A stretch of 64,000 bases of DNA from Enterobacteria phage KhF1: sequence record KT184313.1, one strand, 5' to 3'. The position numbers and the translations under genes are program-made. Shown here piece by piece: positions 20,544-61,690 of this stretch (the stretch's first letter is position 1; each line of letters starts with the position of its first letter). Under the pieces are notes generated by a model that ran no database searches, was not told the DNA's origin, and was given only the letters and a program-made list of their open reading frames with translations.

Positions 20544-28565
<8,022 letters not shown>

Positions 28566-29227: not shown

Positions 29228-29270
29228 AAAGAAACAAAAAAGGGGAAGACCTTTTAAAGTCTCCCCCTTA
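29228..29270 (-). terminator. rho-independent terminator after tail tube gene
   Basis: GGGGAGAC...GTCTTCCCC hairpin followed by TTTTTTGTTTCTTTT on minus strand. Confidence 0.55.
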
Positions 29271-29279
29271 TAGGATTTA

Positions 29280-29726
29280 TTAAACACTTGACGCTGGAAT
29301 TGTAGAAGTGTAGTCTAGCTTCTCACAACCAAAAATCCAAGTTTTAGAGTTCTGGTCACGACCAAGTTCAATCTGTGGTAATTCCTGCAACCAAGCATTA
29401 ATACCAGTTGCCAGAACAGAGCCTGATGGGTCGTAGATTACGAAGTTAGAAGAGATATCTTCTTCAAGTTCCATATTGTCTTGTTTAGCTTGAATTGCAG
29501 AAAGCATCTGGTTAGAGAGAGAAGTCTGCATTAACTCAATCTCAATAGTACCTGTCTTGTCTGCATTTCTTGTCAGAGCAACCTGACCACCTGCACCAAC
29601 AACTGGTGTCACAAGTGGTGATGTTCTCTGTAGACGCAAGAATGAGTCTGGGGCAAAGCCTTCAATGGCAATACCATTCCAGCTACATACAACGTCTTTA
29701 GGGGAATATTGCTGATACATAGCCAT
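29280..29726 (-). CDS. tail tube protein
   Basis: 148 aa directly downstream of sheath gene. Confidence 0.6.
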   Translation of the reverse strand: MAMYQQYSPKDVVCSWNGIAIEGFAPDSFLRLQRTSPLVTPVVGAGGQVALTRNADKTGTIEIELMQTSLSNQMLSAIQAKQDNMELEEDISSNFVIYDPSGSVLATGINAWLQELPQIELGRDQNSKTWIFGCEKLDYTSTIPASSV

Positions 29727-38221: not shown

Positions 38222-39838
38222 TCAACGTCTAAGCCCCTCATATGGGTTTCCTCTCACTAAGTCTGTGTGAGCACCCATTGATGGTGGCTTGAATAATTTA
38301 ACTTCGTTCAGACTGTTGAAAGCATCACTGGTAGCATCCACTTGGTCATCTTTAGTTTTGCCGTCACCACAAAAGCCTTCAAGTTCTTGAAAATAAGCTT
38401 CGTTCCAACTACCTCTCAAGACTTTTACAAGTCCAGCTTCAGAAGCAGCAGAAAATCCCGCAAAGCGGGTAACTTTATCTTTATTTGTTGGTTTGGCCCT
38501 TGCTCGATAACCTTTCTCGGCAAGTTTCCTGATGAGGGATGTTGCGTAGGATTTACCAGCAGCGCCTGGGTCTTGAGGGATAAAAATACCAGTTCGCTTA
38601 CCGTCACTTTCAGCAGTCAAATTAATTTGTGTTTCGACTCCAGAGGGTCTATCTCTAAATCTTACTACATCAATGATATAATAGCAACCGTCTTTTTTAG
38701 ATTTACCCATCTTAACACCTGCTGTCCAGTCTGGATTAGGGTTAACCTCAGATGGTAAAGTTGCTGCTAAGTCCCATGCTCTAACATCAAACACATCTTC
38801 TGGGAGTGAATCAACAATCTCACACCATTGTCTTTGCCAATAGTTTGAACCTTCTGCACGAGCCTTCCAGTTACCGAAACGAAGTCTTGCAACGTTTACA
38901 GGAGTGTTGTTTTCAAGCTTACCGCGATACTTTGGTTCTAAGAAGTCAAGAATTGGATTATCATCAATTGTACCAGAGATGAAGGTGTATGTTTGAGGAA
39001 TCTCAAGAGGGAACATTTCAAGAATCTTGTCTCTCTCCCAATCAGAAACCATCACACCATCATTCATTACATACCAACGAATACGACCACACTTTTCAGG
39101 GTCTGGGTAACCTTCTTCATCTAAGAATGGTTCTACCCAATCGTAAATAAAGTGGTCTCTATCTGGGTTCATGGAAATCTTCATGTATGAATCACCTTCA
39201 GCACCAGAACGTAGACGGGTTTGTAGGTATGAAATCTGTGAAGCAGAGAAGTGTGTACCTTCGTCAAAGTAAATAGCTGAGTATTCAATCCCCTGATGAC
39301 CTTCAGCGTGCTTTTCAAGTTCTAGGTAGGTAAACTTGATAGTTGCCCCAGAAGGGAATGTGATAGTCATTTTCTGCTCGTGAGGAATCCCACCAAACTT
39401 ACCAAATAGTTTCTTTGCAGCAGGCCATAAACCACCTTGTAACTGTGTTGTATTTCGACGGAAATATACAGCATTATAGTTAGGGTCTTCAATAAATCTT
39501 AAAGAGTCCATTAACAATGCAGCAGTTTTACCAGCACCAGCAGCACCACCATAAAGAACCAAGTCAGCATTAGTATTTAAAAAGACCTCTTGAGAACCCG
39601 GCTGAGGGGCTACATAGTTCTTATCAGTCATCAATTTGAAGATAAGTCTAACTTGGTCTGGTGTGTATCTTAATAAAGTCAGAATTTGAGTTGGAAGGAA
39701 TTTAGAGGGGTCTTTACCGAATGATTTGATAATTTCTTTTACTTCATCAGAAAGCCCCAACTCTCCAGCTAGGACTTTCCTAACATCTTCCACTCGCTTC
39801 TGCTTAACAGCATTTAAGTCCATTAAGCACCTCCGCAA
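38222..39838 (-). CDS. terminase large subunit
   Basis: Walker A VLYGGAAGAGKTAALL; ATPase then nuclease-like C-terminal half. Confidence 0.85.
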   Translation of the reverse strand: MRRCLMDLNAVKQKRVEDVRKVLAGELGLSDEVKEIIKSFGKDPSKFLPTQILTLLRYTPDQVRLIFKLMTDKNYVAPQPGSQEVFLNTNADLVLYGGAAGAGKTAALLMDSLRFIEDPNYNAVYFRRNTTQLQGGLWPAAKKLFGKFGGIPHEQKMTITFPSGATIKFTYLELEKHAEGHQGIEYSAIYFDEGTHFSASQISYLQTRLRSGAEGDSYMKISMNPDRDHFIYDWVEPFLDEEGYPDPEKCGRIRWYVMNDGVMVSDWERDKILEMFPLEIPQTYTFISGTIDDNPILDFLEPKYRGKLENNTPVNVARLRFGNWKARAEGSNYWQRQWCEIVDSLPEDVFDVRAWDLAATLPSEVNPNPDWTAGVKMGKSKKDGCYYIIDVVRFRDRPSGVETQINLTAESDGKRTGIFIPQDPGAAGKSYATSLIRKLAEKGYRARAKPTNKDKVTRFAGFSAASEAGLVKVLRGSWNEAYFQELEGFCGDGKTKDDQVDATSDAFNSLNEVKLFKPPSMGAHTDLVRGNPYEGLRR

Positions 39839-39844
39839 ATAGAA

Positions 39845-40045
39845 TTATTCAGAGTCTGTAGCAGTCTCTTCTTTCTTAACTTCGAACTTTGCATCAACAA
39901 CATCAAGAAGTGCATCCATAGATGCTTCTTTAATATCAATACCTGTTGCTACAGATAATCTGTCTGCAATTGCCATGATAGTGTTCTGCATAAATTCTAG
40001 CTTCTTATTAGCTTCATAAAGTTCTTTATAAACGGTCTCGCTCAT
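39845..40045 (-). CDS. hypothetical small protein upstream of terminase
   Basis: ORF track, 66 aa. Confidence 0.4.
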   Translation of the reverse strand: MSETVYKELYEANKKLEFMQNTIMAIADRLSVATGIDIKEASMDALLDVVDAKFEVKKEETATDSE

Positions 40046-40079
40046 TATGTTTTCTCCAAATAGTTAACCATGTTTCCCC

Positions 40080-40106
40080 TTAAAAAAGACGGTACAGAGA
40101 CCGTCA
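40080..40106 (-). terminator. rho-independent terminator downstream of tRNA cluster
   Basis: GACGGT-ctctgt-ACCGTC hairpin followed by TTTTTT on minus strand. Confidence 0.6.
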
Positions 40107-40267
40107 AGGAGAAACCACAATGTACGTCAGAGACATACTGTATAAGCCTTCTTATAAAGTATAACTCTGTAAAAAAGCCCTGTCTAAAAATACTCTTCGG
40201 TAGCGAAAGGAAGAATACTTATAGCAGGGCATTATTATTATTTTAATTGAGAGAGAGTAAAATAACT

Positions 40268-40343
40268 TGGAGAATCCGAAGGGACTCGAACCCTTATAAA
40301 CCTGTTTTGCAGACAGGCACATAGCCATTTCTGTCACGGATTC
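40268..40343 (-). tRNA. tRNA-Cys (anticodon GCA)
   Basis: Acceptor GAATCCG/CGGATTC, T-arm AAGGG-TTCGAGT-CCCTT, anticodon loop CTGCAAA, CCA encoded. Confidence 0.7.
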
Positions 40344-40347
40344 AAAT

Positions 40348-40440
40348 TGGAGGAAGATACCAGACTTGAACTGGTACACCGATTTCTCAGCTACTGGCAG
40401 TTTAGCAAACTGCTCCCTTACCTTTTAGGGTTAATCTTCC
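40348..40440 (-). tRNA. tRNA-Ser (anticodon GCT), long variable arm
   Basis: T-arm ACCAG-TTCAAGT-CTGGT, anticodon loop TTGCTAA, about 90 nt. Confidence 0.6.
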
Positions 40441-40441
40441 A

Positions 40442-41176
40442 TTATTTCTGTAATGCGTTCTTCATTTCTGGTGTTGCAATAGTGTCAATCACACCAGTTT
40501 TACAAGCATCATCAAACCAGTCTGGTAAGATACCTGCTAAGAACCCATTGATATTCGTTTTAAGGTACTCTGCAATAAGGGCAGCTTCTTCTTCAATCAT
40601 CTGCACAACTTCATCTGCATAAGCTGTAATCTTTGAGATACCTTCATTAATCTTACTGACAGCTTGGTTAGCTAAATCAGAAACAGTATCAAGACCCTTA
40701 TCAATAGCATCTTGTAAGTCACTTAACACACCATTAACACTATCTAGTGTACTGTTCATCATGTCAATAGCTTTTTGACCATACTCTGTAGCAACACCCA
40801 TAATACCACTGAATGGTGTACAACCAACTTGTTCTCCTGCTGCACCCATAACATTGGAGTATCCCTTTGCTACCTGCATACGTGATGAAAACTCATCAAT
40901 AGACTTTTGACCGTAGTCTGTTAGGGTCTTAGTAGTTGCTGTAGTGCTTGTAAGGCTTGTTGTAAAGCTGTTTAGAAGGACTGTTGTAAGTCCAGCAGCA
41001 ACAAGTTTCTCCTTCATTGTAGGGTCTGTTACAGAGCTAATAGAGCTTACAAGTGATGTAGAAGCAGCTACGGTTCCACCGAGAACTGCTGCACCAGTAA
41101 TAAGTGGGTTAGAGAACCCTTTACCGGTTTTTAAGAGATTAAAAATCTCCTTACCTTGTTCTGTCATCTCTTTCAT
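40442..41176 (-). CDS. hypothetical Ala/Thr/Ser-rich protein inside tRNA cluster
   Basis: ORF track; start moved to internal ATG at 41176 because the annotated start would overlap tRNA-Phe. Confidence 0.45.
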   Translation of the reverse strand: MKEMTEQGKEIFNLLKTGKGFSNPLITGAAVLGGTVAASTSLVSSISSVTDPTMKEKLVAAGLTTVLLNSFTTSLTSTTATTKTLTDYGQKSIDEFSSRMQVAKGYSNVMGAAGEQVGCTPFSGIMGVATEYGQKAIDMMNSTLDSVNGVLSDLQDAIDKGLDTVSDLANQAVSKINEGISKITAYADEVVQMIEEEAALIAEYLKTNINGFLAGILPDWFDDACKTGVIDTIATPEMKNALQK

Positions 41177-41192
41177 TAAGCACCTTTGAAAT

Positions 41193-41269
41193 TGGTAGTC
41201 CAGTGGGATTTGAACCCTCTTCTCATGTTTTTCAGACACGCGCTTTAACCATATAAGCTACTTGGACTA
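41193..41269 (-). tRNA. tRNA-Phe (anticodon GAA)
   Basis: Acceptor pairing, GGGTTCAAATCCC T-arm, anticodon loop CTGAAAA. Confidence 0.6.
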
Positions 41270-41274
41270 TAAAT

Positions 41275-41350
41275 TGGGGTGACCTACGGGATTTGAACCC
41301 GTATAGACCATGTTCACAGCATGGGTCATTACCATTTATGATAAGGCCAC
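41275..41350 (-). tRNA. tRNA-His (anticodon GTG)
   Basis: Acceptor GTGGCCT/AGGTCAC, anticodon stem CCATG/CATGG, loop CTGTGAA. Confidence 0.7.
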
Positions 41351-41381
41351 ATTTAAGGACTCTCGTAAGAATCCTTAGAAG

Positions 41382-41457
41382 TGGCAGCGGCATAAGGATT
41401 TGAACCTTAATAGGACAGCTTCAGAGACTGTTGCATTGCCAGTTATGCTATACCGCT
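41382..41457 (-). tRNA. tRNA-Gln (anticodon CTG)
   Basis: Acceptor AGCGGTA/TGCCGCT, T-loop TTCAAAT, anticodon loop CTCTGAA. Confidence 0.6.
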
Positions 41458-41462
41458 AAATT

Positions 41463-41534
41463 TGGTACTCCATATCGGATTCGAACCGATACATAACACA
41501 GATTTTAAGTCTGGCCTCTCTGCCAATTGGAGTA
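41463..41534 (-). tRNA. tRNA, short and atypical, isotype undetermined (anticodon possibly TAA)
   Basis: Acceptor ACTCCAA/TGGAGT, T-arm ATCGG-TTCGAAT-CCGAT; anticodon arm does not parse cleanly. Confidence 0.45.
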
Positions 41535-41543
41535 ATGGAGCAT

Positions 41544-41618
41544 TGGCGGGGGATGTTGGAATTGAACCAACTTCTTCGATTTCAAAGACCGAGGTTTTAA
41601 CCTTGTAAACTAATCCCC
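41544..41618 (-). tRNA. tRNA-Gln (anticodon TTG), tentative
   Basis: T-arm GTTGG-TTCAATT-CCAAC, anticodon loop CTTTGAA; acceptor pairing imperfect. Confidence 0.5.
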
Positions 41619-41627
41619 TTTAAATCT

Positions 41628-42185
41628 TTACTTTCTCAGTGGATGAATAAAGAATGCCAACATAACTCTTTCCCTTGAGAATGCTCTTTCTTCTGGGACA
41701 ACACTTTTTAGTTTCCATCCAATATAAATTCTCCAGTAAAACTGTTTACCAAAGACTTTAATTGATGGGATAAAGGCGAATAATCCCCAAGCATTACTGT
41801 TCCACATTAGGAGATAACCAGTCTGATTATCTTCAGGGTCAGAACTTACGTTGATATTACCTTTCCACTTAGTAACATCTTTTACATCTCTTCCTAATAC
41901 ATGGTAAGAGAAGTTATAAGCTTTGTTTCTCCAGAGCCATCCGACTCTTTGCATGTAGACGCCTAGTTTACCAATCCATCTAATATTAGCCCATCTTTTA
42001 ACGTGACCTTCATCACCATCAATTGGGTTGTCATATGTCTCCATCCATCTGAACCCGAAAGGTAAGTGTCCTTTCTTCTCACTGTAGAATGGAACTACAA
42101 AAGGTGCTAAGATAACTGCTAAGATTGCTGCAAATGGCTCTAACAAAGCTAAGAAAATCCATGAAACATATTTTAAGTATCTCAT
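41628..42185 (-). CDS. integral membrane protein
   Basis: N-terminal hydrophobic helices WIFLALLEPFAAILAVILAPFVVPF; Trp-rich. Confidence 0.5.
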   Translation of the reverse strand: MRYLKYVSWIFLALLEPFAAILAVILAPFVVPFYSEKKGHLPFGFRWMETYDNPIDGDEGHVKRWANIRWIGKLGVYMQRVGWLWRNKAYNFSYHVLGRDVKDVTKWKGNINVSSDPEDNQTGYLLMWNSNAWGLFAFIPSIKVFGKQFYWRIYIGWKLKSVVPEERAFSRERVMLAFFIHPLRK

Positions 42186-42424
42186 TGTCTAACCCTCGTA
42201 AGGAGGTAAGCATTATTATTTGTTTCTGAGCTTTCTGGTAACATTGTCTCAAAATTGACGCTTTTAAGTTGTCTTCCACCAAAGCAATGACCAATAAATC
42301 TTTCTACTTTTATTGGGTCGCATTCCCATCCGACTTTCAAGAAAATGTGGGTATCTATAGTGGGAACCCTTACAAACTCAATACTATTGGGATTTTCATG
42401 TTCAACGACGATTAATGTTTGCAT
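42182..42424 (-). CDS. hypothetical protein
   Basis: ORF track; ATGA overlap with downstream membrane-protein gene. Confidence 0.45.
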   Translation of the reverse strand: MQTLIVVEHENPNSIEFVRVPTIDTHIFLKVGWECDPIKVERFIGHCFGGRQLKSVNFETMLPESSETNNNAYLLTRVRQ

Positions 42425-42441
42425 AAATTCCTCTTGCTTAT

Positions 42442-42517
42442 CTGGCGCAGGATAAGGGATTCGAACCCCTATTAACAGCTTCGTAGACTGTTGCTCTATC
42501 CATTTGAACTAATCCTG
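42442..42517 (-). tRNA. tRNA-Arg (anticodon ACG)
   Basis: Acceptor GCAGGAT/ATCCTGC, T-arm GGGGTTCGAATCCC, anticodon loop CTACGAA. Confidence 0.7.
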
Positions 42518-42522
42518 CAAAA

Positions 42523-42600
42523 TTGGTGTTCCAAGACGGATTCGAACCGTCACTAGTACAAGGTTTGAGCTTGCATCCTCTGCCAATTGGGATACTGGAA
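42523..42600 (-). tRNA. tRNA with anticodon CAA (Leu-type anticodon on a short-variable-arm body)
   Basis: Acceptor GTTCCAG/TTGGAAC, T-arm GACGG-TTCGAAT-CCGTC, anticodon loop CTCAAAC. Confidence 0.5.
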
Positions 42601-42601
42601 C

Positions 42602-42677
42602 ATGGTACTCACTAAAGGACTTGAACCTTTTTCTTCATCTTGTAAGGGTGATGTTTTACCATATAAACTAAGCGAGT
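42602..42677 (-). tRNA. tRNA-Val (anticodon TAC)
   Basis: Acceptor TACTCGC/GTGAGTA, T-loop TTCAAGT, anticodon loop CTTACAA. Confidence 0.55.
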
Positions 42678-42681
42678 ATGA

Positions 42682-42768
42682 AAGAGGTCTGGAGTTGTGC
42701 CGCTAACTCAACTCCGTGGAATTTGTTACGGTCTTCAGTTGACTCAAAGCGGTCTTTCACTTGACCTC
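42682..42768 (-). ncRNA. tRNA-sized structured element, not a canonical tRNA
   Basis: 7-bp terminal pairing AGAGGTC/GACCTCT encloses a 7-bp hairpin GGAGTTG/CAACTCC; no TTCGA T-loop. Confidence 0.35.
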
Positions 42769-42772
42769 TGAA

Positions 42773-42848
42773 TTGGTGCTCCCACAAGGATTCGAACCCT
42801 GATAAGTTGCTTACAAGGCAACCGTAATAGCCAATTATACGATAGGAG
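42773..42848 (-). tRNA. tRNA-Thr (anticodon TGT)
   Basis: Acceptor GCTCCTA/TGGGAGC, anticodon stem GTTGC/GCAAC, loop CTTGTAA. Confidence 0.7.
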
Positions 42849-42855
42849 CATTAAT

Positions 42856-42931
42856 TTGGAGCATCCAGAGGGAATCGAACCCTCAACCTCAGTTTGGAAG
42901 ACTGTAATTTTCCCGTTTAAACTATGGATGC
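42856..42931 (-). tRNA. tRNA-Gly (anticodon TCC)
   Basis: Acceptor GCATCCA/TGGATGC, T-loop TTCGATT, anticodon loop CTTCCAA. Confidence 0.65.
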
Positions 42932-42936
42932 ACTAA

Positions 42937-43012
42937 TTGGTGGAGTCACTGAGAATTGAACTCAGTTCCCAAGTTTGCAAAACTCGAATTTTAACCATAT
43001 AAACTATGACCC
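42937..43012 (-). tRNA. tRNA-Ala (anticodon TGC)
   Basis: Acceptor GGGGTCA/TGACTCC (G3-T70 wobble), anticodon loop TTTGCAA. Confidence 0.65.
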
Positions 43013-43018
43013 CAATGT

Positions 43019-43095
43019 TTGGTACAGGTGGAGGGAATTGAACCCATCGTCTTACTGATTAAGAGTCAGCCGCATAACCATTTTGCTACACCTGC
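43019..43095 (-). tRNA. tRNA-Lys (anticodon CTT)
   Basis: Acceptor GCAGGTG/CACCTGT, anticodon stem GCTGA/TCAGT, loop CTCTTAA. Confidence 0.55.
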
Positions 43096-43101
43096 ATTAA
43101 T

Positions 43102-43180
43102 TTGGTGGGAGACAAGGGATTCGAACCCTCAAACACCAACTTCTAAGGATGGTAGGTTTACCAATTACCGTCAATCTCCC
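43102..43180 (-). tRNA. tRNA with anticodon TAG (Leu-type anticodon on a short-variable-arm body), tentative
   Basis: Acceptor GGGAGAT/GTCTCCC, T-arm GAGGG-TTCGAAT-CCCTT, anticodon loop CTTAGAA. Confidence 0.45.
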
Positions 43181-43438
43181 ATTAAATCTTTTTAGAGAAC
43201 TTCTAAGAACCTAAGCAACAAGGTTCCACAACAAGCTGTAATAACCTTAGAAGCCCTCTAAAAAGACCTAAAAAGGTCTTTGCATAGTCTTGTTTAATCC
43301 GGTGACTAGAACCTTTGGAGAGCTTGATATTATCTCTTCTCCGTGACACCTACTAGGTGCTTTACTGTGCGTGTACGACAATACACGAGGGATACCAAAG
43401 CAACATCCGAATGAAGCTTGGCTTTAAAATCTTATTAG

Positions 43439-43526
43439 GCGGTAAGTAAAGGAGTCGAACCCTCACCGTATCTCTACAGTGGCAACAGTTTTCAAGACTG
43501 TTTGGCTGCCATTAGCCGCTACCTAC
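43439..43526 (-). tRNA. tRNA-Ser (anticodon TGA), long variable arm
   Basis: Acceptor GGTAGGT/ACTTACC, anticodon stem ACAGT/ACTGT, loop CTTGAAA, about 88 nt. Confidence 0.6.
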
Positions 43527-43539
43527 CCCTAATAAGACT

Positions 43540-43622
43540 TTGGCATGGGACGGAGGAGTTGAACCCCTTTGAAACGGTTTTGGAGGCCGTTGCTCATGCC
43601 TTAGAGTCTTAACATCGTCCCA
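43540..43622 (-). tRNA. tRNA, atypical; possibly tRNA-Trp (anticodon CCA) with extended D region
   Basis: Acceptor GTGGGAC/GTCCCAT, T-loop TTCAACT, candidate anticodon loop CTCCAAA; about 8 extra nt in D region. Confidence 0.45.
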
Positions 43623-43774
43623 CACTATAATTCGAAGCTTACCCTATTATCTCAACACTGTAAAGCCCCTTCTCAGATTATTTACATGTTCTGGAAAACA
43701 TGAGATACAGACCACCTCCCTACAGGAAGACCCGCTTAGGTCGTATAAGTAATCTGCTAACTATTTGGCACACC

Positions 43775-43842
43775 CTACAGGATTCGAACCTGTAACTAAC
43801 GATTTAGAAGACCGTTGCTCTATCCAATTGAACTAAGGGTGC
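43775..43842 (-). tRNA. tRNA-Arg (anticodon TCT)
   Basis: Acceptor GCACCCT/AGGGTGT, T-arm ACAGG-TTCGAAT-CCTGT, anticodon loop CTTCTAA. Confidence 0.65.
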
Positions 43843-44088
43843 ATTAATCTTTAAAGACTCTCTTAGAAAGCCCTTAAAGATGCCCACCTTATTAATCATA
43901 CCGTGGGCGAGTACGCCAAATTCTTTGATGAGGGATTGGAAGACCTCACTGGTGTTTAGCCTATCAAGCTACTGCCAGAAAAACATTGTCGTTTGCATTT
44001 ATTTTAAATTTGCAAAATAGACGCTACGCAACGAAAACTAAGGTTACTATAAAGTGGTCACATCTCAATGTCAACAACTTTATTGAAA

Positions 44089-44164
44089 TTGGTACTGGTA
44101 GGTGGAATCGAACCACCGATGTTCCCTTATCAGGGGAGTGTTATAACCTTCTTAACTATACCAG
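44089..44164 (-). tRNA. tRNA-Ile (anticodon GAT)
   Basis: Acceptor GCTGGTA/TACCAGT, T-arm GGTGG-TTCGATT-CCACC, anticodon loop CTGATAA. Confidence 0.7.
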
Positions 44165-44165
44165 C

Positions 44166-44243
44166 TTGGAGGTTCAGATGGGAATCGAACCCACATTCAT
44201 AGGGCTTATGAGACCCTTGCATTACCTTATCTGCGACTGAACC
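44166..44243 (-). tRNA. tRNA-Met (anticodon CAT), copy 1
   Basis: Acceptor GGTTCAG/CTGAACC, anticodon stem AGGGT/GCCCT, loop CTCATAA. Confidence 0.65.
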
Positions 44244-44246
44244 ATT

Positions 44247-44322
44247 TTGGTAGAAGTGGAGGGATTCGAACCCATCGCCTGTCAGATTAAAAGTCTGCCG
44301 CATCACCATTCTGCTACACTTC
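44247..44322 (-). tRNA. tRNA-Lys (anticodon TTT)
   Basis: Acceptor GGAAGTG/CACTTCT, T-loop TTCGAAT, anticodon loop CTTTTAA. Confidence 0.6.
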
Positions 44323-44325
44323 CAT

Positions 44326-44469
44326 TAAATTATCTTTGTAGATAAGCTACCCAGACTTGCTTAAGGTCTGTAGCGATGTGCCTTGTTGGGTTTAAATCTA
44401 GAATTTACCCTTTCACCCTTTGTGGTCGCATACTCACAGGTAAGCTTAATAACTTATCTACAAAGATAA
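44326..44469. repeat. 19-bp perfect inverted repeat pair (AATTATCTTTGTAGATAAG) enclosing about 106 nt
   Basis: Arms at about 44326-44344 and 44451-44469 are exact reverse complements. Confidence 0.6.
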
Positions 44470-44470
44470 T

Positions 44471-44602
44471 TACCAGACCGTTGTTTATCATCTTAAGTGC
44501 TACCATTACACCAACTCGACATCTGCCGAGTGAAGGAATCGAACCTTCGCCTTTTCTTTACCGAGAAATAGATTGTTTAAGTTTTGCTGTAAACGGTCTT
44601 CT
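44471..44602 (-). ncRNA. tRNA-like domain in permuted (Y RNA-like / YrlA-like) arrangement inside a long closing stem
   Basis: On minus strand: T-arm GAAGG-TTCGATT-CCTTC, acceptor-like 7-bp helix ACTCGGC/GTCGAGT capped by a 4-nt loop, D-arm GTGT-AATGGTA-GCAC, CTTAA/TTAAG helix, outer stem AGACCGTT/AACGGTCT. Confidence 0.45.
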
Positions 44603-44615
44603 GTAAATTTGTTGA

Positions 44616-44691
44616 GCCAGACCAAGTTTTAAATTTTTCAAAATTAAATTGGCTTGAAATTTTCATACGTTCTTGCTGTATTTGGTCTTCT
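44616..44691 (-). repeat. spacer hairpin element, family member 2 (CCAGACCAA ... TTGGTCTTCTG)
   Basis: Same conserved arms and TTGCTGTA block as 44471..44602 but AT-rich interior. Confidence 0.5.
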
Positions 44692-44752
44692 GCTCCTTTA
44701 AAGGATACTCGTAAGAACCCTTTAAGGGAGGGGCTAAATAGCCCTCTCAAAA

Positions 44753-44829
44753 TTGGCGGCTACGATGAGACTTGAACTCACATCATCTCCCGTGACAGGG
44801 GAGTATTTTCTCCAGTTAAACTACATAGC
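44753..44829 (-). tRNA. tRNA-Asp (anticodon GTC)
   Basis: Acceptor GGCTATG/CGTAGCC, T-loop TTCAAGT, anticodon stem CTCCC/GGGAG, loop CTGTCAC. Confidence 0.7.
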
Positions 44830-44834
44830 CTTTA

Positions 44835-44922
44835 TTGGTGTGCCGTGTAGGAGTCGAACCTACCGAGTCTCAATGACAAGGGATTTACAGTCCCCACCGC
44901 TACCATCTACGGGATAACGACA
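44835..44922 (-). tRNA. tRNA-Tyr (anticodon GTA), long variable arm
   Basis: Acceptor GTGTCGT/ACGGCAC, T-arm GTAGG-TTCGACT-CCTAC, anticodon loop CTGTAAA. Confidence 0.65.
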
Positions 44923-44930
44923 CATTTAAT

Positions 44931-45007
44931 TTGGCGGTTAGTCAGGGATTCGAACCCTGTGCCATTCGCTTAACAGGCGACCGCACATACCTTATGTGCT
45001 TCCTAAC
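44931..45007 (-). tRNA. tRNA-Asn (anticodon GTT)
   Basis: T-arm CAGGG-TTCGAAT-CCCTG, anticodon loop CTGTTAA. Confidence 0.65.
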
Positions 45008-45020
45008 CATGTTTAGTATT

Positions 45021-45085
45021 ACCAGACCGTATATTTCAATTTTTTCCGCTAAAAATTTAATAAATATTGCTGTAAACGGTCTTCT
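45021..45085 (-). repeat. spacer hairpin element, family member 3 (CCAGACCGT ... AACGGTCTTCTG)
   Basis: Conserved arms and TTGCTGTAAACGGTCTTCTGTAAA block. Confidence 0.5.
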
Positions 45086-45091
45086 GTAAAT

Positions 45092-45167
45092 TTGGAGGCG
45101 GGTGCAGGAGTCGAACCTGCCGATACCATGCTAATGAGACATGTGAGACGCCCTTTCTCTATACCCG
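45092..45167 (-). tRNA. tRNA with anticodon CAT, copy 2 (initiator, elongator Met or Ile2 undetermined)
   Basis: T-arm GCAGG-TTCGACT-CCTGC, anticodon stem CATGT/GCATG, loop CTCATTA. Confidence 0.6.
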
Positions 45168-45179
45168 CAATTCTTAATG

Positions 45180-45251
45180 ACCAGACCAAATATCTTCTTT
45201 GTCCGATTAACTTTCAGATGAGTAGATTAAGTTTGCTGTAATTGGTCTTCT
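45180..45251 (-). repeat. spacer hairpin element, family member 4 (CCAGACCAA ... TTGGTCTTCTG)
   Basis: Conserved arms and TTGCTGTAATTGGTCTTCTG block. Confidence 0.5.
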
Positions 45252-45258
45252 GTCAAAA

Positions 45259-45336
45259 CTGGCGTTCCAGAAGGGATTTGAACCCTCAAATATCCACTTT
45301 GAAAGAGTGGTGACTTTACCATTTTGTCTACTGGAA
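45259..45336 (-). tRNA. tRNA-Glu (anticodon TTC)
   Basis: Acceptor GTTCCAG/CTGGAAC, anticodon stem CCACT/AGTGG, loop CTTTCAA. Confidence 0.7.
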
Positions 45337-45343
45337 CATTAAT

Positions 45344-45423
45344 TTGGTCTCCGTTGAAGGATTTGAACCCTCGACCCCTTGCTCCCAAAGCAAGTGCTGC
45401 TAAACCAAACTGAGCTAAACGGA
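45344..45423 (-). tRNA. tRNA-Pro (anticodon TGG)
   Basis: Acceptor CTCCGTT/AACGGAG, anticodon stem CTTGC/GCAAG, loop TTTGGGA. Confidence 0.7.
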
Positions 45424-45542
45424 GATAAACTTTTCAAACTCTATGTAACCACTTTAACATTATTTTTTAGTGATTGTCAAGAACTTTTTTAAAATATTTT
45501 TCAGTATCTTAGAAAAGCTCTCATTTCGTTTCTATGTAGAAC

Positions 45543-45571
45543 ATATTAAAGGGTATTAAACACATTGTCAA
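45543..45571 (-). promoter_or_regulatory. sigma70-like promoter reading into the tRNA cluster (TTGACA, 17 nt, TAATAT)
   Basis: Reverse complement reads GGTA-TTGACA-atgtgtttaataccctt-TAATAT; sits inside inverted repeat GGGTATT...AATACCC. Confidence 0.6.
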
Positions 45572-45589
45572 TACCCTTTTTAAAACTTT

Positions 45590-47005
45590 TTACCAGATAT
45601 AACGGTCAATCATTACTGCTTTGAGCATTACACTGATTGGGTCAAACTTCTCACCACCAAGCAGAGCTTTTAAAGTGGCTGGAGAGAACCCTGATACCAT
45701 TGCTACACCGTTATCCTTAACAGATACTTCGCAAGTACCATTACGGTTTGCTAAGTACCAGAATACCAGTTGTGGCATCTCATATCCAGCTTTTTTGTAC
45801 TTACTCTGAATTGCTTCAAAGTTTGTACGTCCGTTAGCTCCATCAACCTGATTGAACTCCATATCGGAGAAGATGATAAGCTTACTTGGCATATCTTTCT
45901 GAGTCAAGTTGTTTCTTTTACCTGTTTCAAGAATGCGGTCAAAAGCTGCTTGTAAGTTAGTTGAGCCATATTCAACGTGTCGCATCACCTGACGATGACG
46001 GTTTCGTAAATCACCACTCAATTCGATGAAATGAGGGTTTGTTGAATAAACCATTAACTCGTTCTTAAAGCAACCTGTATTGCGTTCTGCTACATACAAG
46101 GCAAGGGATACACCAATATCAAGGGCAGTGATTGAACCAAGATTCACCCAAGACATTGAGCTTGAAACATCAGTCATACACAGGATGTTTTCACCTTCTG
46201 CCATCCAGTTTGGTAGTGCTTTCCACTGCTCATTAGCAACATCTGCATTACCATACTTGATAGATTTAATCACATCGTATGGATAAACAGCACCAGCATT
46301 AATCTTAGTCTCGCCCTTTGATAAGGACTCAATGTAAGATTTGTAGCGTTCTCCATCTTTACGGTTAAAGAGTTTTTGGTAACGTGCAGCAGCAAGTGAA
46401 GGAATCTTACTGTAGTCGATATTACCAAACTCATTAGCAGAGATTTTTTGTTCAACTGTATCAGATAGTGCAGACAGCAGTGTGCGGTACTCTTTCTCAC
46501 TCAAGTTTGCAAACTTGCAGAAACGTTTTACAAACTGTTTGTGACGTGGTTTTACTCGTGGTAACCACTTAGCTGCTAAACCTGCTGTTGCAGGGTCTAG
46601 TAATGCTGCTTCTAAATGTTTGAAGGCATCTGTCTCGAAACGAGTACCTACAAAGATTTTGAAGTCATCAAAGCGACCAAGCTCTGCAATCTTATCCATA
46701 ATGCGAAGAACCTGCGTAGGTTCTAAAACTTTATCTTCAATCGCTTGAAGTAAAACAGTTCGGAAAGCTTTACGCTCACCCATACCTTCTCGTACATCTC
46801 GCATATGCAGTAAAATACGAACTGCAACATCAACATCCTCATGCAAAGCTTTGTATAACAAGTCTGGTAAGATTTCTACATTGCTACGGCTGGAACCAGC
46901 AGCTTTGTAAAAGTCCACAAGAGCAGACATTGATGAAGTATGGTTTACAGCACCATTTTCAGTTCGACCTGCATGAAGGTGCGCATGTTTAAATAATTCG
47001 CTCAT
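45590..47005 (-). CDS. von Willebrand factor A (MIDAS) domain protein with N-terminal helical domain
   Basis: MIDAS-like DVSSSM (DxSxS) at about residue 275 and downstream IIFSDMEF; N-terminal 270 aa unassigned. Confidence 0.65.
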   Translation of the reverse strand: MSELFKHAHLHAGRTENGAVNHTSSMSALVDFYKAAGSSRSNVEILPDLLYKALHEDVDVAVRILLHMRDVREGMGERKAFRTVLLQAIEDKVLEPTQVLRIMDKIAELGRFDDFKIFVGTRFETDAFKHLEAALLDPATAGLAAKWLPRVKPRHKQFVKRFCKFANLSEKEYRTLLSALSDTVEQKISANEFGNIDYSKIPSLAAARYQKLFNRKDGERYKSYIESLSKGETKINAGAVYPYDVIKSIKYGNADVANEQWKALPNWMAEGENILCMTDVSSSMSWVNLGSITALDIGVSLALYVAERNTGCFKNELMVYSTNPHFIELSGDLRNRHRQVMRHVEYGSTNLQAAFDRILETGKRNNLTQKDMPSKLIIFSDMEFNQVDGANGRTNFEAIQSKYKKAGYEMPQLVFWYLANRNGTCEVSVKDNGVAMVSGFSPATLKALLGGEKFDPISVMLKAVMIDRYIW

Positions 47006-56600: not shown

Positions 56601-56727
56601 TTTAAGGTCTGATAAGATTCTGGAAAGGAAAGGAAAAGGATTGTATAGAGGCTATTACATAGACGTAAAAAGCCCCATTTTAAGGGGCTGTTCAGGTATC
56701 TGGGGCTATTTAGCCCCGTTGCGTCGA

Positions 56728-56976
56728 TTAGTTATAATCTTGTTTGTTGTAGTACAGGGAGACGATTTTTTCTCCCCAATAGTGATAAGTATAACCATCC
56801 TTGAGAACTTCTTGTTTTGTTTCCTCCCAGAACTCATCCGAAGGATTATAATCTTTGATGGTCTGACTGATAAGACATTTCACCATTTCAAAGGCGTTAT
56901 CAGTGCCTGCAATGTCAAATTTAACATCCAGAGAGGAAAAACCGAACTCGTTAACAGTAGCGCGGATAGTTGCCAT
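56728..56976 (-). CDS. small early-type hypothetical protein
   Basis: Preceded by conserved type A leader (hairpin + GGAG SD). Confidence 0.55.
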   Translation of the reverse strand: MATIRATVNEFGFSSLDVKFDIAGTDNAFEMVKCLISQTIKDYNPSDEFWEETKQEVLKDGYTYHYWGEKIVSLYYNKQDYN

Positions 56977-60529: not shown

Positions 60530-60615
60530 TTTTAAGTTCTCCAATTTAGGATTGAGTGGTAAAGCTCTTTATCTGGGGCTTAAGATATCAACTCCCAAGC
60601 CCCATGTAAAGTACT
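60530..60615 (-). promoter_or_regulatory. conserved intergenic leader, type B
   Basis: ttaggattgagtggtaaagctctttatctggggcttaagatatcaactcccaagccccatgtaaagtactttaca. Confidence 0.6.
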
Positions 60616-60888
60616 TTACATTAAATGCAGTTTTTTGCCTTTTACTATAATGTAACTCGATGCGCTATTGCTTTGCACATCCTGATAAATTCTGCGCAAA
60701 CGTCCTTCGTAGTGTACTTTCCAACTGGTTGGAATCTTTTTACCGTATCCCGTAGCAGTTTTTTGGAGTCCTGCTACTTGCCAATCTAAGATATGAGTTT
60801 CAGCCTGTAAATCCTCAAAGTGCATGACACCATCTACATAGTGACGTAGTGTGACATTTAAAGTACGACCGTTGTTAGTAGTATACAT
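60616..60888 (-). CDS. small early-type hypothetical protein
   Basis: Preceded by type A leader. Confidence 0.55.
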   Translation of the reverse strand: MYTTNNGRTLNVTLRHYVDGVMHFEDLQAETHILDWQVAGLQKTATGYGKKIPTSWKVHYEGRLRRIYQDVQSNSASSYIIVKGKKLHLM

Positions 60889-61600: not shown

Positions 61601-61690
61601 TTTAGAATCTCCAGTTTAGGGGTTAATTTGATAAAGCTCTTTATCTGGGGCTATCATATCAGCTTGTTAGCCCCGTGTAAAGAGGTCTAT
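61601..61690 (-). promoter_or_regulatory. conserved intergenic leader, type B variant
   Basis: tttaggggttaatttgataaagctctttatctggggctatcatatcagcttgttagccccgtgtaaag. Confidence 0.55.

What the first reader, a model, noticed from the sequence alone, without database searches (positions are those of the whole stretch)
40160..40235. Long imperfect hairpin with U-run downstream of the last tRNA
On the minus strand GCCCTG...CAGGGC encloses an extended imperfect stem (AGTATTCTTCC / GAAGAGTATT) followed by TTTTTT, immediately after tRNA-Cys and before the GACGGT hairpin terminator at 40080..40106. It may be a tandem terminator or a small structured RNA at the 3' end of the tRNA operon.
Basis: seen in the sequence. 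Interest (0 to 1): 0.3.

Follow-up and report, generated by a model that had tools for sequence, protein, structure and literature searches.

The report
Tandem terminator block after phage tRNAs
The hairpin is real and most likely the first of two back-to-back transcription stop signals separating the tRNA genes from the DNA-packaging genes in a Felix O1-like phage; it sits in a conserved folded RNA leader, so it is mostly ordinary with some unexplained extras.

Summary
On the minus strand, 40230-40177 folds into a 20-bp imperfect hairpin (-25.4 kcal/mol, z -5.2) followed by U6 at 40176-40171. It starts 37 nt after tRNA-Cys.

The window is a Felixounavirus. The hairpin (HP1/T1) lies between the 26-tRNA cluster and a small ORF plus the large terminase gene.

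HP1 opens a roughly 150-nt conserved noncoding block:
- HP1 with its U6.
- A second long hairpin, HP-M (40169-40128).
- A 15-nt leader antisense to the small ORF's Shine-Dalgarno and AUG.
- A second terminator, T2 (40105-40082).

Felixounavirus, Suspvirus and Mooglevirus keep the block almost unchanged. Kolesnikvirus and Yersinia phage P778 match it with a covariance model. With Kolesnikvirus included, 18 of 43 base pairs changed on both sides yet still pair.

Every lineage examined has two terminators in this gap, and no sigma-70-type promoter fits after the last one.

Best reading: HP1 is an intrinsic terminator, the upstream half of a tandem pair that throttles entry into the packaging operon. 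GenBank already annotates the homologue as a terminator in phage Michonne.

Not explained by termination alone: the apical loop motif UCGCUACC is kept, and the Kolesnikvirus homologue has no U-run. An sRNA or regulatory-leader role is not excluded. Interest is modest.

The parts
40268..40343 (-). tRNA-Cys(GCA) with encoded CCA. It is the last of 26 tRNA genes and is included as context.
   Evidence: ARAGORN; Rfam tRNA model, 56.4 bits.
40231..40267 (-). Variable A/U-rich spacer forming the 3' trailer of tRNA-Cys. It contains a CT-dinucleotide run whose copy number differs between isolates.
   Evidence: Alignment A3. This is the least conserved part of the gap (0.65-0.85 identity).
40177..40230 (-). 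HP1, the reported hairpin: 20 bp, two 1-nt bulges, 11-nt loop, and a G+C-rich base GCCCUG/CAGGGC.
   Evidence: Fold gives -25.4 kcal/mol, z -5.2. It ranks 6th of 42,628 windows. Within Felix-type sequences there is a compensatory U-A to C-G change and an A-U to G-U change. With Kolesnikvirus added, 10 of 20 pairs changed on both sides. The homologue is annotated 'terminator' in Michonne.
40199..40209 (-). HP1 apical loop CUUUCGCUACC. The motif UCGCUACC is also kept in Kolesnikvirus.
   Evidence: Invariant in 15 distinct Felix/Susp/Moogle sequences. UCGCUACC aligns identically in Ea21-4 and M7.
40171..40176 (-). U6 tract directly 3' of HP1. HP1 plus this tract is called T1.
   Evidence: Sequence. 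Invariant in Felix/Susp/Moogle. P778 and SarahDanielle have a T1-like hairpin with U6. Kolesnikvirus has none.
40158..40186 (-). Sigma-70-like promoter match TAGACA-17-TATACT. It overlaps the HP1 3' arm, the U-run and the HP-M 5' arm. Its status is uncertain.
   Evidence: 10 of 12 matches. Annotated 'promoter' in phage ASO1A. The region's promoter-like count is not above shuffles (20 against 17 +/- 3.9). No equivalent was found in Ea21-4 or P778.
40128..40169 (-). HP-M, a second long imperfect hairpin: CAGAG.UAUACU.UAUAAG-AAGG-CUUAUA.AGUAUG.CUCUG.
   Evidence: RNAalifold. There is a compensatory A-U to G-C change, and the fourth loop base takes all four nucleotides. Kolesnikvirus keeps the hairpin with a different apical sequence and a compensated base pair.
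40122..40138 (-). HP2 (GUAUGUC-UCU-GACGUAC), a small hairpin mutually exclusive with HP-M.
   Evidence: Found by the scan. All 7 pairs are kept; two vary on one side only. The Ea21-4 equivalent is GUAUGU-UUCG-GCAUAC. HP2 forms in the fold of an RNA that starts at about 40150.
40106..40122 (-). Leader CAUUGUGGUUUCUCCUU. It is antisense to the small ORF's Shine-Dalgarno and AUG, and alternatively pairs with the purine tract after T2.
   Evidence: The duplex with the translation initiation region gives -17.9 kcal/mol, z -4.2, 0 of 300 shuffles. It is kept in Susp and Moogle, weaker in P778 (-11.8), and absent in Kolesnikvirus and SarahDanielle. RNAalifold pairs CAUUGUG with CAUAAUG.
40082..40105 (-). 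T2: the HP3 hairpin GACGGU-CUCUGU-ACCGUC (40105-40088) plus U6 (40087-40082).
   Evidence: Terminator scan. Annotated 'terminator' in Michonne and Mijalis. The stem sequence is replaced in Kolesnikvirus with 4 of 6 pairs compensated, and by other stems in P778 and SarahDanielle.
40072..40081 (-). Purine tract AAGGGGAAAC immediately after T2. It pairs with the leader's GUUUCUCCUU and so extends the T2 helix in read-through RNA.
   Evidence: MFE and RNAalifold structures. Variants AGGAGAACC, AGAGGAACC and AGGAGAGAC keep pairing. The short ORF that begins here in the window is not conserved.
40043..40057 (-). Translation initiation region GGAGAAAACAUAAUG of the small ORF, the target of the antisense leader.
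39845..40045 (-). Small ORF (66 aa, phrog_4397, function unknown). It is the first gene after the block.
   Evidence: the ORF listing; PHROGs; annotated in relatives.
38222..39823 (-). Large terminase subunit gene, followed by the portal gene: the packaging operon gated by T1 and T2.
   Evidence: Annotation of relatives; tblastn.

Best explanation
HP1 plus its U6 tract is a Rho-independent terminator (T1), read as RNA on the minus strand. It is the upstream half of a conserved tandem pair (T1 at 40230-40171, T2 at 40105-40082). The pair closes the tRNA cluster and lies in the only transcriptional path into the small-ORF/terminase operon.

Inferred mechanism: RNA polymerase coming from the tRNA genes transcribes HP1. 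The G+C-rich base closes next to the U-tract and most complexes release. Those that escape meet T2 65 nt later. Only a small fraction, or polymerase made terminator-resistant later in infection, reaches the packaging genes. This keeps tRNA output high and terminase output low or delayed.

Shown here: the hairpin, the U-tracts, the strand, conservation, covariation, and the tandem arrangement in all lineages. Inferred: actual termination, its efficiency, and its effect on timing.

HP1 is also the first module of a conserved structured block (HP1, HP-M, antisense leader, T2), so it probably does more than stop transcription.
For: - The hairpin is far more stable than chance and abuts U6.
- It is on the same strand as, and 37 nt downstream of, the last tRNA, and upstream of the terminase operon.
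- The homologous 54-nt hairpin and the second hairpin are annotated 'terminator' in phage Michonne.
- Pairing is kept through a compensatory U-A to C-G change within Felix-type phages. With Kolesnikvirus added, 18 of 43 pairs of the block changed on both sides and 99.7% of cells still pair; slid controls give 2-4 such pairs.
- Model R1, built on Felix-type sequences only, finds full-length syntenic matches in Kolesnikvirus (E about 4e-5) and Yersinia phage P778 (E 1e-4).
- G-U pairs and A-U to G-U changes make the minus-strand RNA fold better than the plus strand (-24.2 against -17.3 kcal/mol for HP1). This points to RNA of the tRNA/terminase sense.
- Every lineage has two terminator-like hairpins in this gap.
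- Only 36 nt (Felix-type) or about 20 nt (Kolesnikvirus) separate the last U-run from the ATG, and no sigma-70-like site lies there.
- In the RT-PCR table of the Felix O1 paper, ORFs 45-49 of the tRNA region fall in the earliest class and ORF 52 (TerL) in a later one (PMC3185647).
Against: - No 3'-end or transcript data exist for any Ounavirinae phage (literature searches).
- The TransTerm list in the Felix O1 genome paper does not include T1 or T2.
- The Kolesnikvirus homologue of HP1 keeps the hairpin and the loop motif UCGCUACC but has no U-run. The conserved role of HP1 therefore cannot be termination alone.
- Conservation of HP-M downstream of T1 implies that a useful share of transcripts reads through T1 or starts inside it.
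- Sequence invariance between Felixounavirus and Mooglevirus is not special in itself. A control terminator elsewhere in the genome (29240-29269) is equally invariant.
Confidence: 0.62

Rival explanations
1. The block encodes a small stable RNA co-transcribed with the tRNAs. One candidate is a roughly 97-nt 3' trailer RNA (spacer plus HP1, ending at T1). The other is a roughly 89-nt RNA between the two terminators (HP-M, a 22-nt single strand, then T2), made by read-through of T1. Either would act in trans. HP1 would serve mainly as the stabilising 3' hairpin, or as a recognition element through its fixed loop.
For: - Conservation of 40230-40100 is 0.88-0.97 against Mooglevirus, Suspvirus and L041. 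That equals the tRNA genes and exceeds the flanking ORFs (0.55-0.85).
- The loop motif is fixed across lineages whose stems diverged.
- The candidate RNAs fold into sRNA-like shapes: z -6.1 for the 97-nt RNA and -3.3 for the 89-nt RNA, which has a 5' hairpin, an open segment and a terminator.
- Precedents exist. E. coli rrn operons with dual terminators encode the sRNAs RrA/B/F between them (PMC8144298). T4 has 'RNA species I and II' in its tRNA region (PMC2330249).
Against: - No expression data exist.
- No Rfam family matches.
- No complement of the loop motif occurs on the sense strand of the window.
- The inter-terminator sequence is not conserved in P778 or SarahDanielle beyond the UUCUCCUU motif.
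- This reading is not exclusive of the terminator reading.
Confidence: 0.22
2. The block is a regulatory leader of the packaging operon. A promoter embedded in T1/HP-M (TAGACA-17-TATACT, start near 40150), or read-through RNA, yields a transcript that mostly stops at T2. The 15-nt leader 40122-40108 pairs with the Shine-Dalgarno and AUG of the small ORF, either in cis or as a terminated short RNA in trans. Expression of the small ORF and TerL would then need antitermination and/or processing, for example RNase III cleavage of the long helices.
For: - The leader-TIR duplex gives -17 to -18 kcal/mol in Felixounavirus, Suspvirus and Mooglevirus, with none of 300 shuffles as good.
- RNAalifold pairs CAUUGUG with the start-codon region, and G-U/G-C swaps keep it.
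- No space exists for a sigma-70 promoter after T2.
- The promoter match is 10 of 12 with a 17-bp spacer, is invariant in Felix-type phages, and is annotated in ASO1A.
- HP2 forms only in RNA that lacks the HP-M 5' arm.
- The Felix O1 paper states that passage of the many terminators and temporal control are unexplained.
Against: - The promoter-like count in the region is not above chance, and no equivalent exists in Kolesnikvirus or P778.
- The leader-TIR pairing is absent in Kolesnikvirus and SarahDanielle.
- The changes that keep the pairing are pyrimidine transitions opposite G, which would be tolerated anyway.
- Any anti-SD-like CUCC will pair with any GGAG.
- No antiterminator protein has been identified.
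Confidence: 0.25
3. The conservation reflects a DNA-level site (packaging site, origin or cruciform) or a protein-coding gene on one of the strands, not an RNA structure.
For: - The site is next to the terminase gene.
- Several public records annotate short ORFs across the region, on different strands: UAB_Phi87 Phi87_146/147, Silverhawkium gp84, Ea21-4 gp44 and P778 ORF035.
Against: - The physical genome ends (the direct terminal repeat of UAB_Phi87) map to window 41419-41960, 1.2 kb away.
- The annotated ORFs disagree in strand and frame.
- Contig L041, which has a 1-nt insertion in the HP-M loop, has no open frame of 45 codons or more in the region.
- Variation sits in loops and in compensating stem positions.
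- G-U pairs favour one RNA strand.
Confidence: 0.03

Closest known systems
Canonical Rho-independent (intrinsic) terminators of enterobacteria and their phages
   Same: A G+C-rich stem base directly followed by U6, on the sense strand, at the end of a stable-RNA transcription unit. The homologue in phage Michonne was picked up by the submitters' terminator annotation.
   Different: HP1 is unusually long (54 nt, 20 bp with bulges, 11-nt loop). Its loop motif is conserved across genera. The Kolesnikvirus homologue lacks the U-tract.
Dual terminators of the E. coli rrnA, rrnB and rrnD operons, with the sRNAs RrA/B/F encoded between them (PMC8144298)
   Same: There are two terminators in tandem at the end of a stable-RNA operon. 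[quoted passage not shown]
   Different: This is a phage tRNA cluster, not an rRNA operon. No sequence relationship has been shown. Here a protein-coding operon follows directly, and the inter-terminator RNA is antisense to its start site.
3' external transcribed spacer RNA of the E. coli glyW-cysT-leuZ tRNA operon (3'ETS-leuZ, an sRNA sponge; from my own knowledge)
   Same: It is an RNA made of the trailer after the last tRNA plus the operon terminator, released by tRNA 3' processing.
   Different: No evidence here for Hfq binding or sponge targets. The trailer sequence is poorly conserved and only the hairpin is kept.
RNA species I and II in the phage T4 tRNA gene region (PMC2330249, Figure 1 legend)
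   Same: They are structured RNAs of unknown function encoded with a phage tRNA cluster.
   Different: No sequence or structure comparison was made here. The T4 RNAs are not described as terminators.
Phage P1/P7 c4 antisense RNA, and lambda PR'-tR' with Q antitermination (from my own knowledge)
   Same: In P1, an upstream RNA segment of the same transcription unit pairs with the ribosome-binding site of a downstream gene. In lambda, a terminator in the leader of a late operon must be overridden.
   Different: No c4-like RNase P processing signal, no Q-like protein and no qut-like site has been identified. The resemblance is in logic only.

Membership tests
Rho-independent terminator | Stable G+C-rich hairpin in the nascent RNA | tested here: met
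   -25.4 kcal/mol, z -5.2. The base is GCCCUG/CAGGGC.
Rho-independent terminator | U-tract of at least 5 directly 3' of the stem | tested here: met
   UUUUUU at 40176-40171, invariant in Felix/Susp/Moogle. Present after the T1-like hairpins of P778 and SarahDanielle. Not present after the Kolesnikvirus homologue.
Rho-independent terminator | Lies downstream of, and on the same strand as, a transcription unit | tested here: met
   It lies 37 nt after tRNA-Cys on the minus strand.
Rho-independent terminator | RNA 3' ends or in vitro termination at the U-tract | not testable with these tools
   No transcript data were found for any Ounavirinae phage.
Tandem (dual) terminator | A second independent terminator a short distance downstream on the same strand | tested here: met
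   T2 at 40105-40082. Both are annotated in Michonne. Two terminator-like hairpins are present in each lineage.
Inter-terminator sRNA of the RrA/B/F type | Conserved primary and secondary structure between the two terminators | tested here: met
   HP-M and the leader are conserved in Felix/Susp/Moogle. HP-M is kept in Kolesnikvirus. P778 and SarahDanielle do not conserve it beyond a short motif.
Inter-terminator sRNA of the RrA/B/F type | A discrete transcript, with Hfq or CsrA binding | not testable with these tools
   By inspection, no conserved GGA loop motif was seen: the window HP-M loop is AAGG.
Any described RNA family (Rfam 15) | Match to a covariance model | tested here: not met
   Between 40045 and 40267 there is no hit at E <= 1. 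Only tRNAs and weak chance hits appear elsewhere.
Sigma-70 promoter between T1 and T2 | -35 and -10 hexamers with 16-18 bp spacing, conserved in relatives | tested here: inconclusive
   TAGACA-17-TATACT matches 10 of 12 and is invariant in Felix-type phages. It overlaps conserved stems, the region's promoter-like count is at chance level, and nothing comparable exists in Ea21-4 or P778.
Cis-antisense translational operator (leader pairs with SD and AUG) | Complementarity beyond chance, kept in relatives | tested here: inconclusive
   -17.9 kcal/mol, 0 of 300 shuffles in Felix/Susp/Moogle. P778 is marginal (14 of 300). Kolesnikvirus and SarahDanielle show none.
Packaging site or genome terminus | Coincides with the physical ends of virion DNA | tested here: not met
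   The direct terminal repeat of UAB_Phi87 maps to window 41419-41960.
Protein-coding gene | Open frame conserved across relatives | tested here: not met
   L041 has no open frame of 45 codons or more. The annotated ORFs differ in strand and frame, and the short ORF at 40070 is not conserved.
T4 RNA species I/II | Sequence or structural homology | not tested
   Only the positional analogy was noted.

The most novel reading that the evidence does not exclude
The block HP1-HP-M-leader-T2 is a riboregulatory gate for the packaging operon of Felix O1-like phages. RNA that passes T1, or starts at the embedded promoter, carries a 15-nt sequence antisense to the Shine-Dalgarno and AUG of the first packaging-operon gene. 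That RNA silences the gene in cis, or in trans when it terminates at T2 as a phage sRNA of about 70-90 nt. The invariant HP1 loop UCGCUACC would be a recognition site for a factor that overrides the terminators or processes the RNA, which would explain why Kolesnikvirus keeps HP1 without a U-run.
Probability: 0.22. Interest if true: 0.55.

Novelty: new member of a known kind. Interest (0 to 1): 0.3.

Why it matters
Felix O1-like phages are widely used for Salmonella and E. coli typing and biocontrol. They encode no RNA polymerase or known sigma factor. The genome paper states that it is unknown how transcription passes the many terminators or how timing is set (PMC3185647).

This block marks the one place where transcription must cross two terminators to reach the packaging genes. 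It therefore gives a concrete, mutable site for testing how these phages separate tRNA expression from late gene expression.

It also shows that several ORFs annotated across this gap in public records are probably spurious.

As a terminator alone, it is an ordinary feature.

Tried and rejected
- **Rfam.** A scan of 39000-46500 at E <= 1 found only tRNAs and chance hits, with nothing in the gap.
- **Packaging site.** The direct terminal repeat of UAB_Phi87 maps 1.2 kb away.
- **Coding explanations.** The short ORF ATGGTT... is not conserved even within Felixounavirus. The longer frames are lost in L041.
- **Partner for the HP1 loop.** GGTAGCGA occurs only as the hairpin's own complement and once more on the plus strand, which is no more than chance.
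- **First IMG/VR pattern.** It had a gap set too tight and returned only Kolesnikvirus contigs. The corrected pattern gave 30 true loci plus two chance ones, L044 and L045.
- **Second IMG/VR pattern** (T1 base plus GTTTCTCCTT). It added 13 loci, none of which matches model R1, so they are chance pairings of a terminator with a reverse-strand ribosome-binding site.
- **E. coli genomes.** The block has no match in 5,426 complete genomes, so it is not host-derived.
- **Weak R1 hit at 25106-25224 (+).** It lies antisense to coding genes and is treated as chance.
- **HP2 3' arm as an antiterminator of T2.** The complementarity in the window is not kept in Mooglevirus (inspection).
- **CsrA-type GGA loop motif.** It is not conserved (inspection).
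- **Sequence invariance as proof of extra function.** A control terminator at 29240-29269 is just as invariant between Felixounavirus and Mooglevirus, so the argument was weakened.
- **Literature.** No transcriptome, small-RNA or 3'-end study of any Ounavirinae phage was found.

Full report
**Observation**

On the minus strand, GCCCUG (40230-40225) and CAGGGC (40182-40177) close a 54-nt hairpin. It has 20 base pairs, two single-base bulges and an 11-nt loop, CUUUCGCUACC. UUUUUU follows directly at 40176-40171.

The fold is -25.4 kcal/mol against -11.1 +/- 2.75 for dinucleotide shuffles (z -5.2). Among 42,628 sixty-nt windows on both strands of the 64-kb window, it is the 6th most stable distinct site.

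tRNA-Cys ends at 40268. The GACGGU/ACCGUC hairpin with U6 lies at 40105-40082.

**Context**

The window is a Felixounavirus, a Felix O1-like myophage, 97-99% identical to many E. coli and Salmonella phages.

On the minus strand the gene order is:
- 26 tRNA genes with a few ORFs among them.
- tRNA-Ser and tRNA-Cys.
- A 222-nt gap.
- A 66-aa ORF of unknown function (phrog_4397).
- The large terminase subunit, then the portal gene.

The hairpin is therefore the first structure after the last tRNA and lies upstream of the packaging genes.

**Public annotation**

The GenBank record of Citrobacter phage Michonne marks the exact homologue of the 54-nt hairpin, and the second hairpin, as terminators. 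Mijalis marks the second one.

Phage ASO1A marks TAGACA-17-TATACT between them as a promoter.

The terminator table of the Felix O1 genome paper lists neither hairpin (PMC3185647).

**Conservation**

The stretch from HP1 to the second U-run (40230-40082) is 97% identical on average across 15 distinct sequences from Felixounavirus, Suspvirus and Mooglevirus.

In 40-nt bins it scores 0.88-0.97 against those genera. That equals the tRNA genes. The spacer after tRNA-Cys scores 0.65-0.85 and the flanking ORFs 0.55-0.85.

As a caution, a control terminator elsewhere in the genome (29240-29269) is equally invariant between Felixounavirus and Mooglevirus. Invariance at this evolutionary distance does not by itself show more than termination.

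**Structure and covariation**

RNAalifold on 26 sequences predicts three hairpins:
- HP1.
- HP-M (40169-40128), a second long imperfect hairpin.
- HP3 (40105-40088).

Within the Felix-type set, variation sits in loops or keeps pairing. In HP1 there is a U-A to C-G change and an A-U to G-U change. In HP-M there is an A-U to G-C change, and the fourth loop base takes all four nucleotides. In total 99.7% of cells pair.

A covariance model built only from these sequences finds full-length syntenic matches in three places:
- Kolesnikvirus phages Ea21-4, M7 and SPARTY: 31-32 bits, E about 4e-5 in 78 kb.
- Yersinia phage P778: 24.9 bits, E 1e-4.
- Hafnia phage SarahDanielle: only a partial match.

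With Kolesnikvirus added, 18 of 43 pairs changed on both sides and still pair: 10 of 20 in HP1, 4 of 17 in HP-M and 4 of 6 in HP3. Slid controls give 2-4.

Two caveats apply. The alignment was fitted to the model. The Kolesnikvirus differences also amount to one divergence event.

The minus-strand RNA folds better than the plus strand (HP1 -24.2 against -17.3 kcal/mol), owing to G-U pairs. This points to RNA of the tRNA/terminase sense rather than a DNA cruciform.

**Not a gene, not a genome end, not host DNA**

- Public records place short ORFs across the gap on different strands. Contig L041, with a 1-nt insertion in the HP-M loop, has no open frame of 45 codons or more there.
- The 8-codon ORF that starts at 40070 is not conserved.
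- The direct terminal repeat determined for UAB_Phi87 (PMC4837284) maps to window 41419-41960, inside the tRNA cluster.
- The block has no match in 5,426 complete E. coli genomes and no Rfam match.

**Lineage comparison**

Every lineage has two terminator-like hairpins in this gap, but not always at the same place.

| Lineage | First terminator | Second terminator |
|---|---|---|
| Felixouna-, Susp- and Mooglevirus | HP1 + U6 | HP3 + U6 |
| Yersinia phage P778 | Shorter hairpin on the same GCCC...GGGC base + U6 (-16.7 kcal/mol) | UGGGGC/GCCCCA + U-run |
| Hafnia phage SarahDanielle | GACCCACA/UGUGGGUC + U6 | 10-12 bp hairpin + U-run |
| Kolesnikvirus | HP3 equivalent | Extra terminator just before the small ORF |

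Kolesnikvirus keeps the HP1 hairpin and the loop motif UCGCUACC, but CAGCUUUCGAG follows it, so there is no U-run.

After the last U-run, only 36 nt (Felix-type) or about 20 nt (Kolesnikvirus) remain before the ATG, and no sigma-70-like site lies there. I infer that any transcript of the small ORF and terminase gene must cross at least T2, unless an unknown promoter type exists.

**Further anatomy**

The 15 nt upstream of T2, CAUUGUGGUUUCUCC (40122-40108), can pair at 14 of 15 positions with GGAGAAAACAUAAUG (40057-40043). That target is the Shine-Dalgarno and start codon of the small ORF.

- The duplex is -17.9 kcal/mol (z -4.2, 0 of 300 shuffles) and is kept at -17.2 to -17.7 in Suspvirus and Mooglevirus.
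- It is weaker in P778 (-11.8; 14 of 300) and absent in Kolesnikvirus and SarahDanielle.
- The changes that keep it are pyrimidine transitions opposite G, which would be tolerated anyway, so this is suggestive only.

The same anti-SD segment can instead pair with a purine tract just after T2 (40081-40072). That pairing extends the T2 helix in read-through RNA.

A small hairpin, HP2 (40138-40122), is mutually exclusive with HP-M and keeps all 7 pairs. It forms in the fold of an RNA that starts near 40150, the start expected from TAGACA-17-TATACT.

That promoter match is 10 of 12 with ideal spacing. However, it overlaps conserved stems, and the region's promoter-like count is at chance level (20 against 17 +/- 3.9). 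No equivalent was found in Kolesnikvirus or P778.

**Most likely mechanism**

HP1 plus U6 is an intrinsic terminator, the upstream half of a tandem pair that ends the tRNA cluster and throttles transcription into the packaging operon.

This fits the RT-PCR classes of the Felix O1 paper: ORFs 45-49 of the tRNA region fall in the earliest class and ORF 52 (TerL) in a later one. It also fits the need for little terminase relative to tRNA.

Strong sigma-70-like sites further downstream, such as TTGACA-16-TATGAT at 37235-37208, could drive the abundant head genes independently. That last point is inference.

Three observations are not explained by termination alone:
- The HP1 loop motif is fixed.
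- Kolesnikvirus keeps HP1 without a U-run.
- HP-M is conserved downstream of T1.

I therefore hold two non-exclusive additions open:
- **A small RNA made with the tRNAs.** Precedents are the RrA/B/F sRNAs between the dual terminators of E. coli rrn operons (PMC8144298) and RNA species I and II of the T4 tRNA region (PMC2330249).
- **A regulatory leader.** It would need antitermination or processing, with the antisense leader controlling translation of the first packaging-operon gene. This is the logic of P1 c4 and lambda PR'-tR', which I cite from my own knowledge.

**Novelty and verdict**

The hairpin is a real, conserved RNA structure of a known kind. Its homologue is already annotated as a terminator in one relative.

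To my knowledge the composite block around it has not been described. It gives a testable handle on the unresolved question of temporal control in Felix O1-like phages.

Interest is modest (0.3). The riboregulatory reading has perhaps a one-in-five chance and would be moderately interesting if true.

Noticed in passing
window 43843-44045 (-): A roughly 200-nt noncoding stretch lies between a strong sigma-70-like promoter (TTGACA-17-TATAGT, 44074-44046) and tRNA-Arg(tct). It folds with z -3.7 and has a 16-bp hairpin next to the tRNA. It is 95% identical to the divergent contig L041, where the flanks are 80-88%. It gives weak tmRNA-model hits (E 0.003). It may be a second structured leader or small RNA.
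   Followed up: partly
window 40250-40258 (-): A CT-dinucleotide run in the trailer of tRNA-Cys varies in copy number between isolates: one extra CT in L010 and three extra in L033. It behaves like a small slippage-prone repeat.
   Followed up: no
window 41419-41960: The direct terminal repeat at the ends of the UAB_Phi87 record (542 bp in the record, 608 bp in the paper) maps here, inside the tRNA cluster. The physical genome ends of this phage group therefore probably fall within the window.
   Followed up: partly
window 40070-40246 (+) and 40152-40379 (-); L006, L008, L010, L047: Public records annotate short hypothetical proteins, one a 'putative membrane protein', across this noncoding block on differing strands, and even across tRNA-Cys. 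These are probably spurious gene calls.
   Followed up: partly
L008 841-918; L014; L015 402-478: ARAGORN does not call the Kolesnikvirus tRNA-Cys homologue upstream of the block, although the SPARTY record annotates it as tRNA-Cys. It may be a degenerate tRNA.
   Followed up: no
window 60560-60619 (-), 56660-56730 (both strands), 61630-61689 (+), 29573-29632 (-), 38230-38290: These are other exceptionally stable 60-nt hairpin windows (-24 to -29 kcal/mol), five of them more stable than HP1. They were not examined.
   Followed up: no
window 25106-25224 (+): Weak match of model R1 (16.5 bits) antisense to two coding genes. It has a long hairpin whose loop, GUUUCACUACC, resembles the HP1 loop. 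It is treated as chance.
   Followed up: partly
window 43547-43621 (-) and 43176-43275 (-): Weak sub-threshold Rfam hits (tRNA-Sec model E 0.53; a microRNA model E 5e-4) fall in gaps of the tRNA cluster where ARAGORN calls nothing. They could be decayed tRNA genes or other hairpins.
   Followed up: no
phages collection hits: Near-identical Felix O1-like sequences are deposited under the names Staphylococcus phage SA1, Listeria phage LPML1 and a Campylobacter phage. These are probably mislabelled or contaminated records.
   Followed up: no
L008 990-1012 compared with window 40191-40215: The apical part of Kolesnikvirus HP-M (GUCUUUCCGAAGAGUUUUUGAG) resembles the upper stem and 3' arm of Felix-type HP1 (UUCUUCC...CCGAAGAGUAUUUUUAGAC). 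This hints that the two long hairpins share ancestry or exchanged modules.
   Followed up: no
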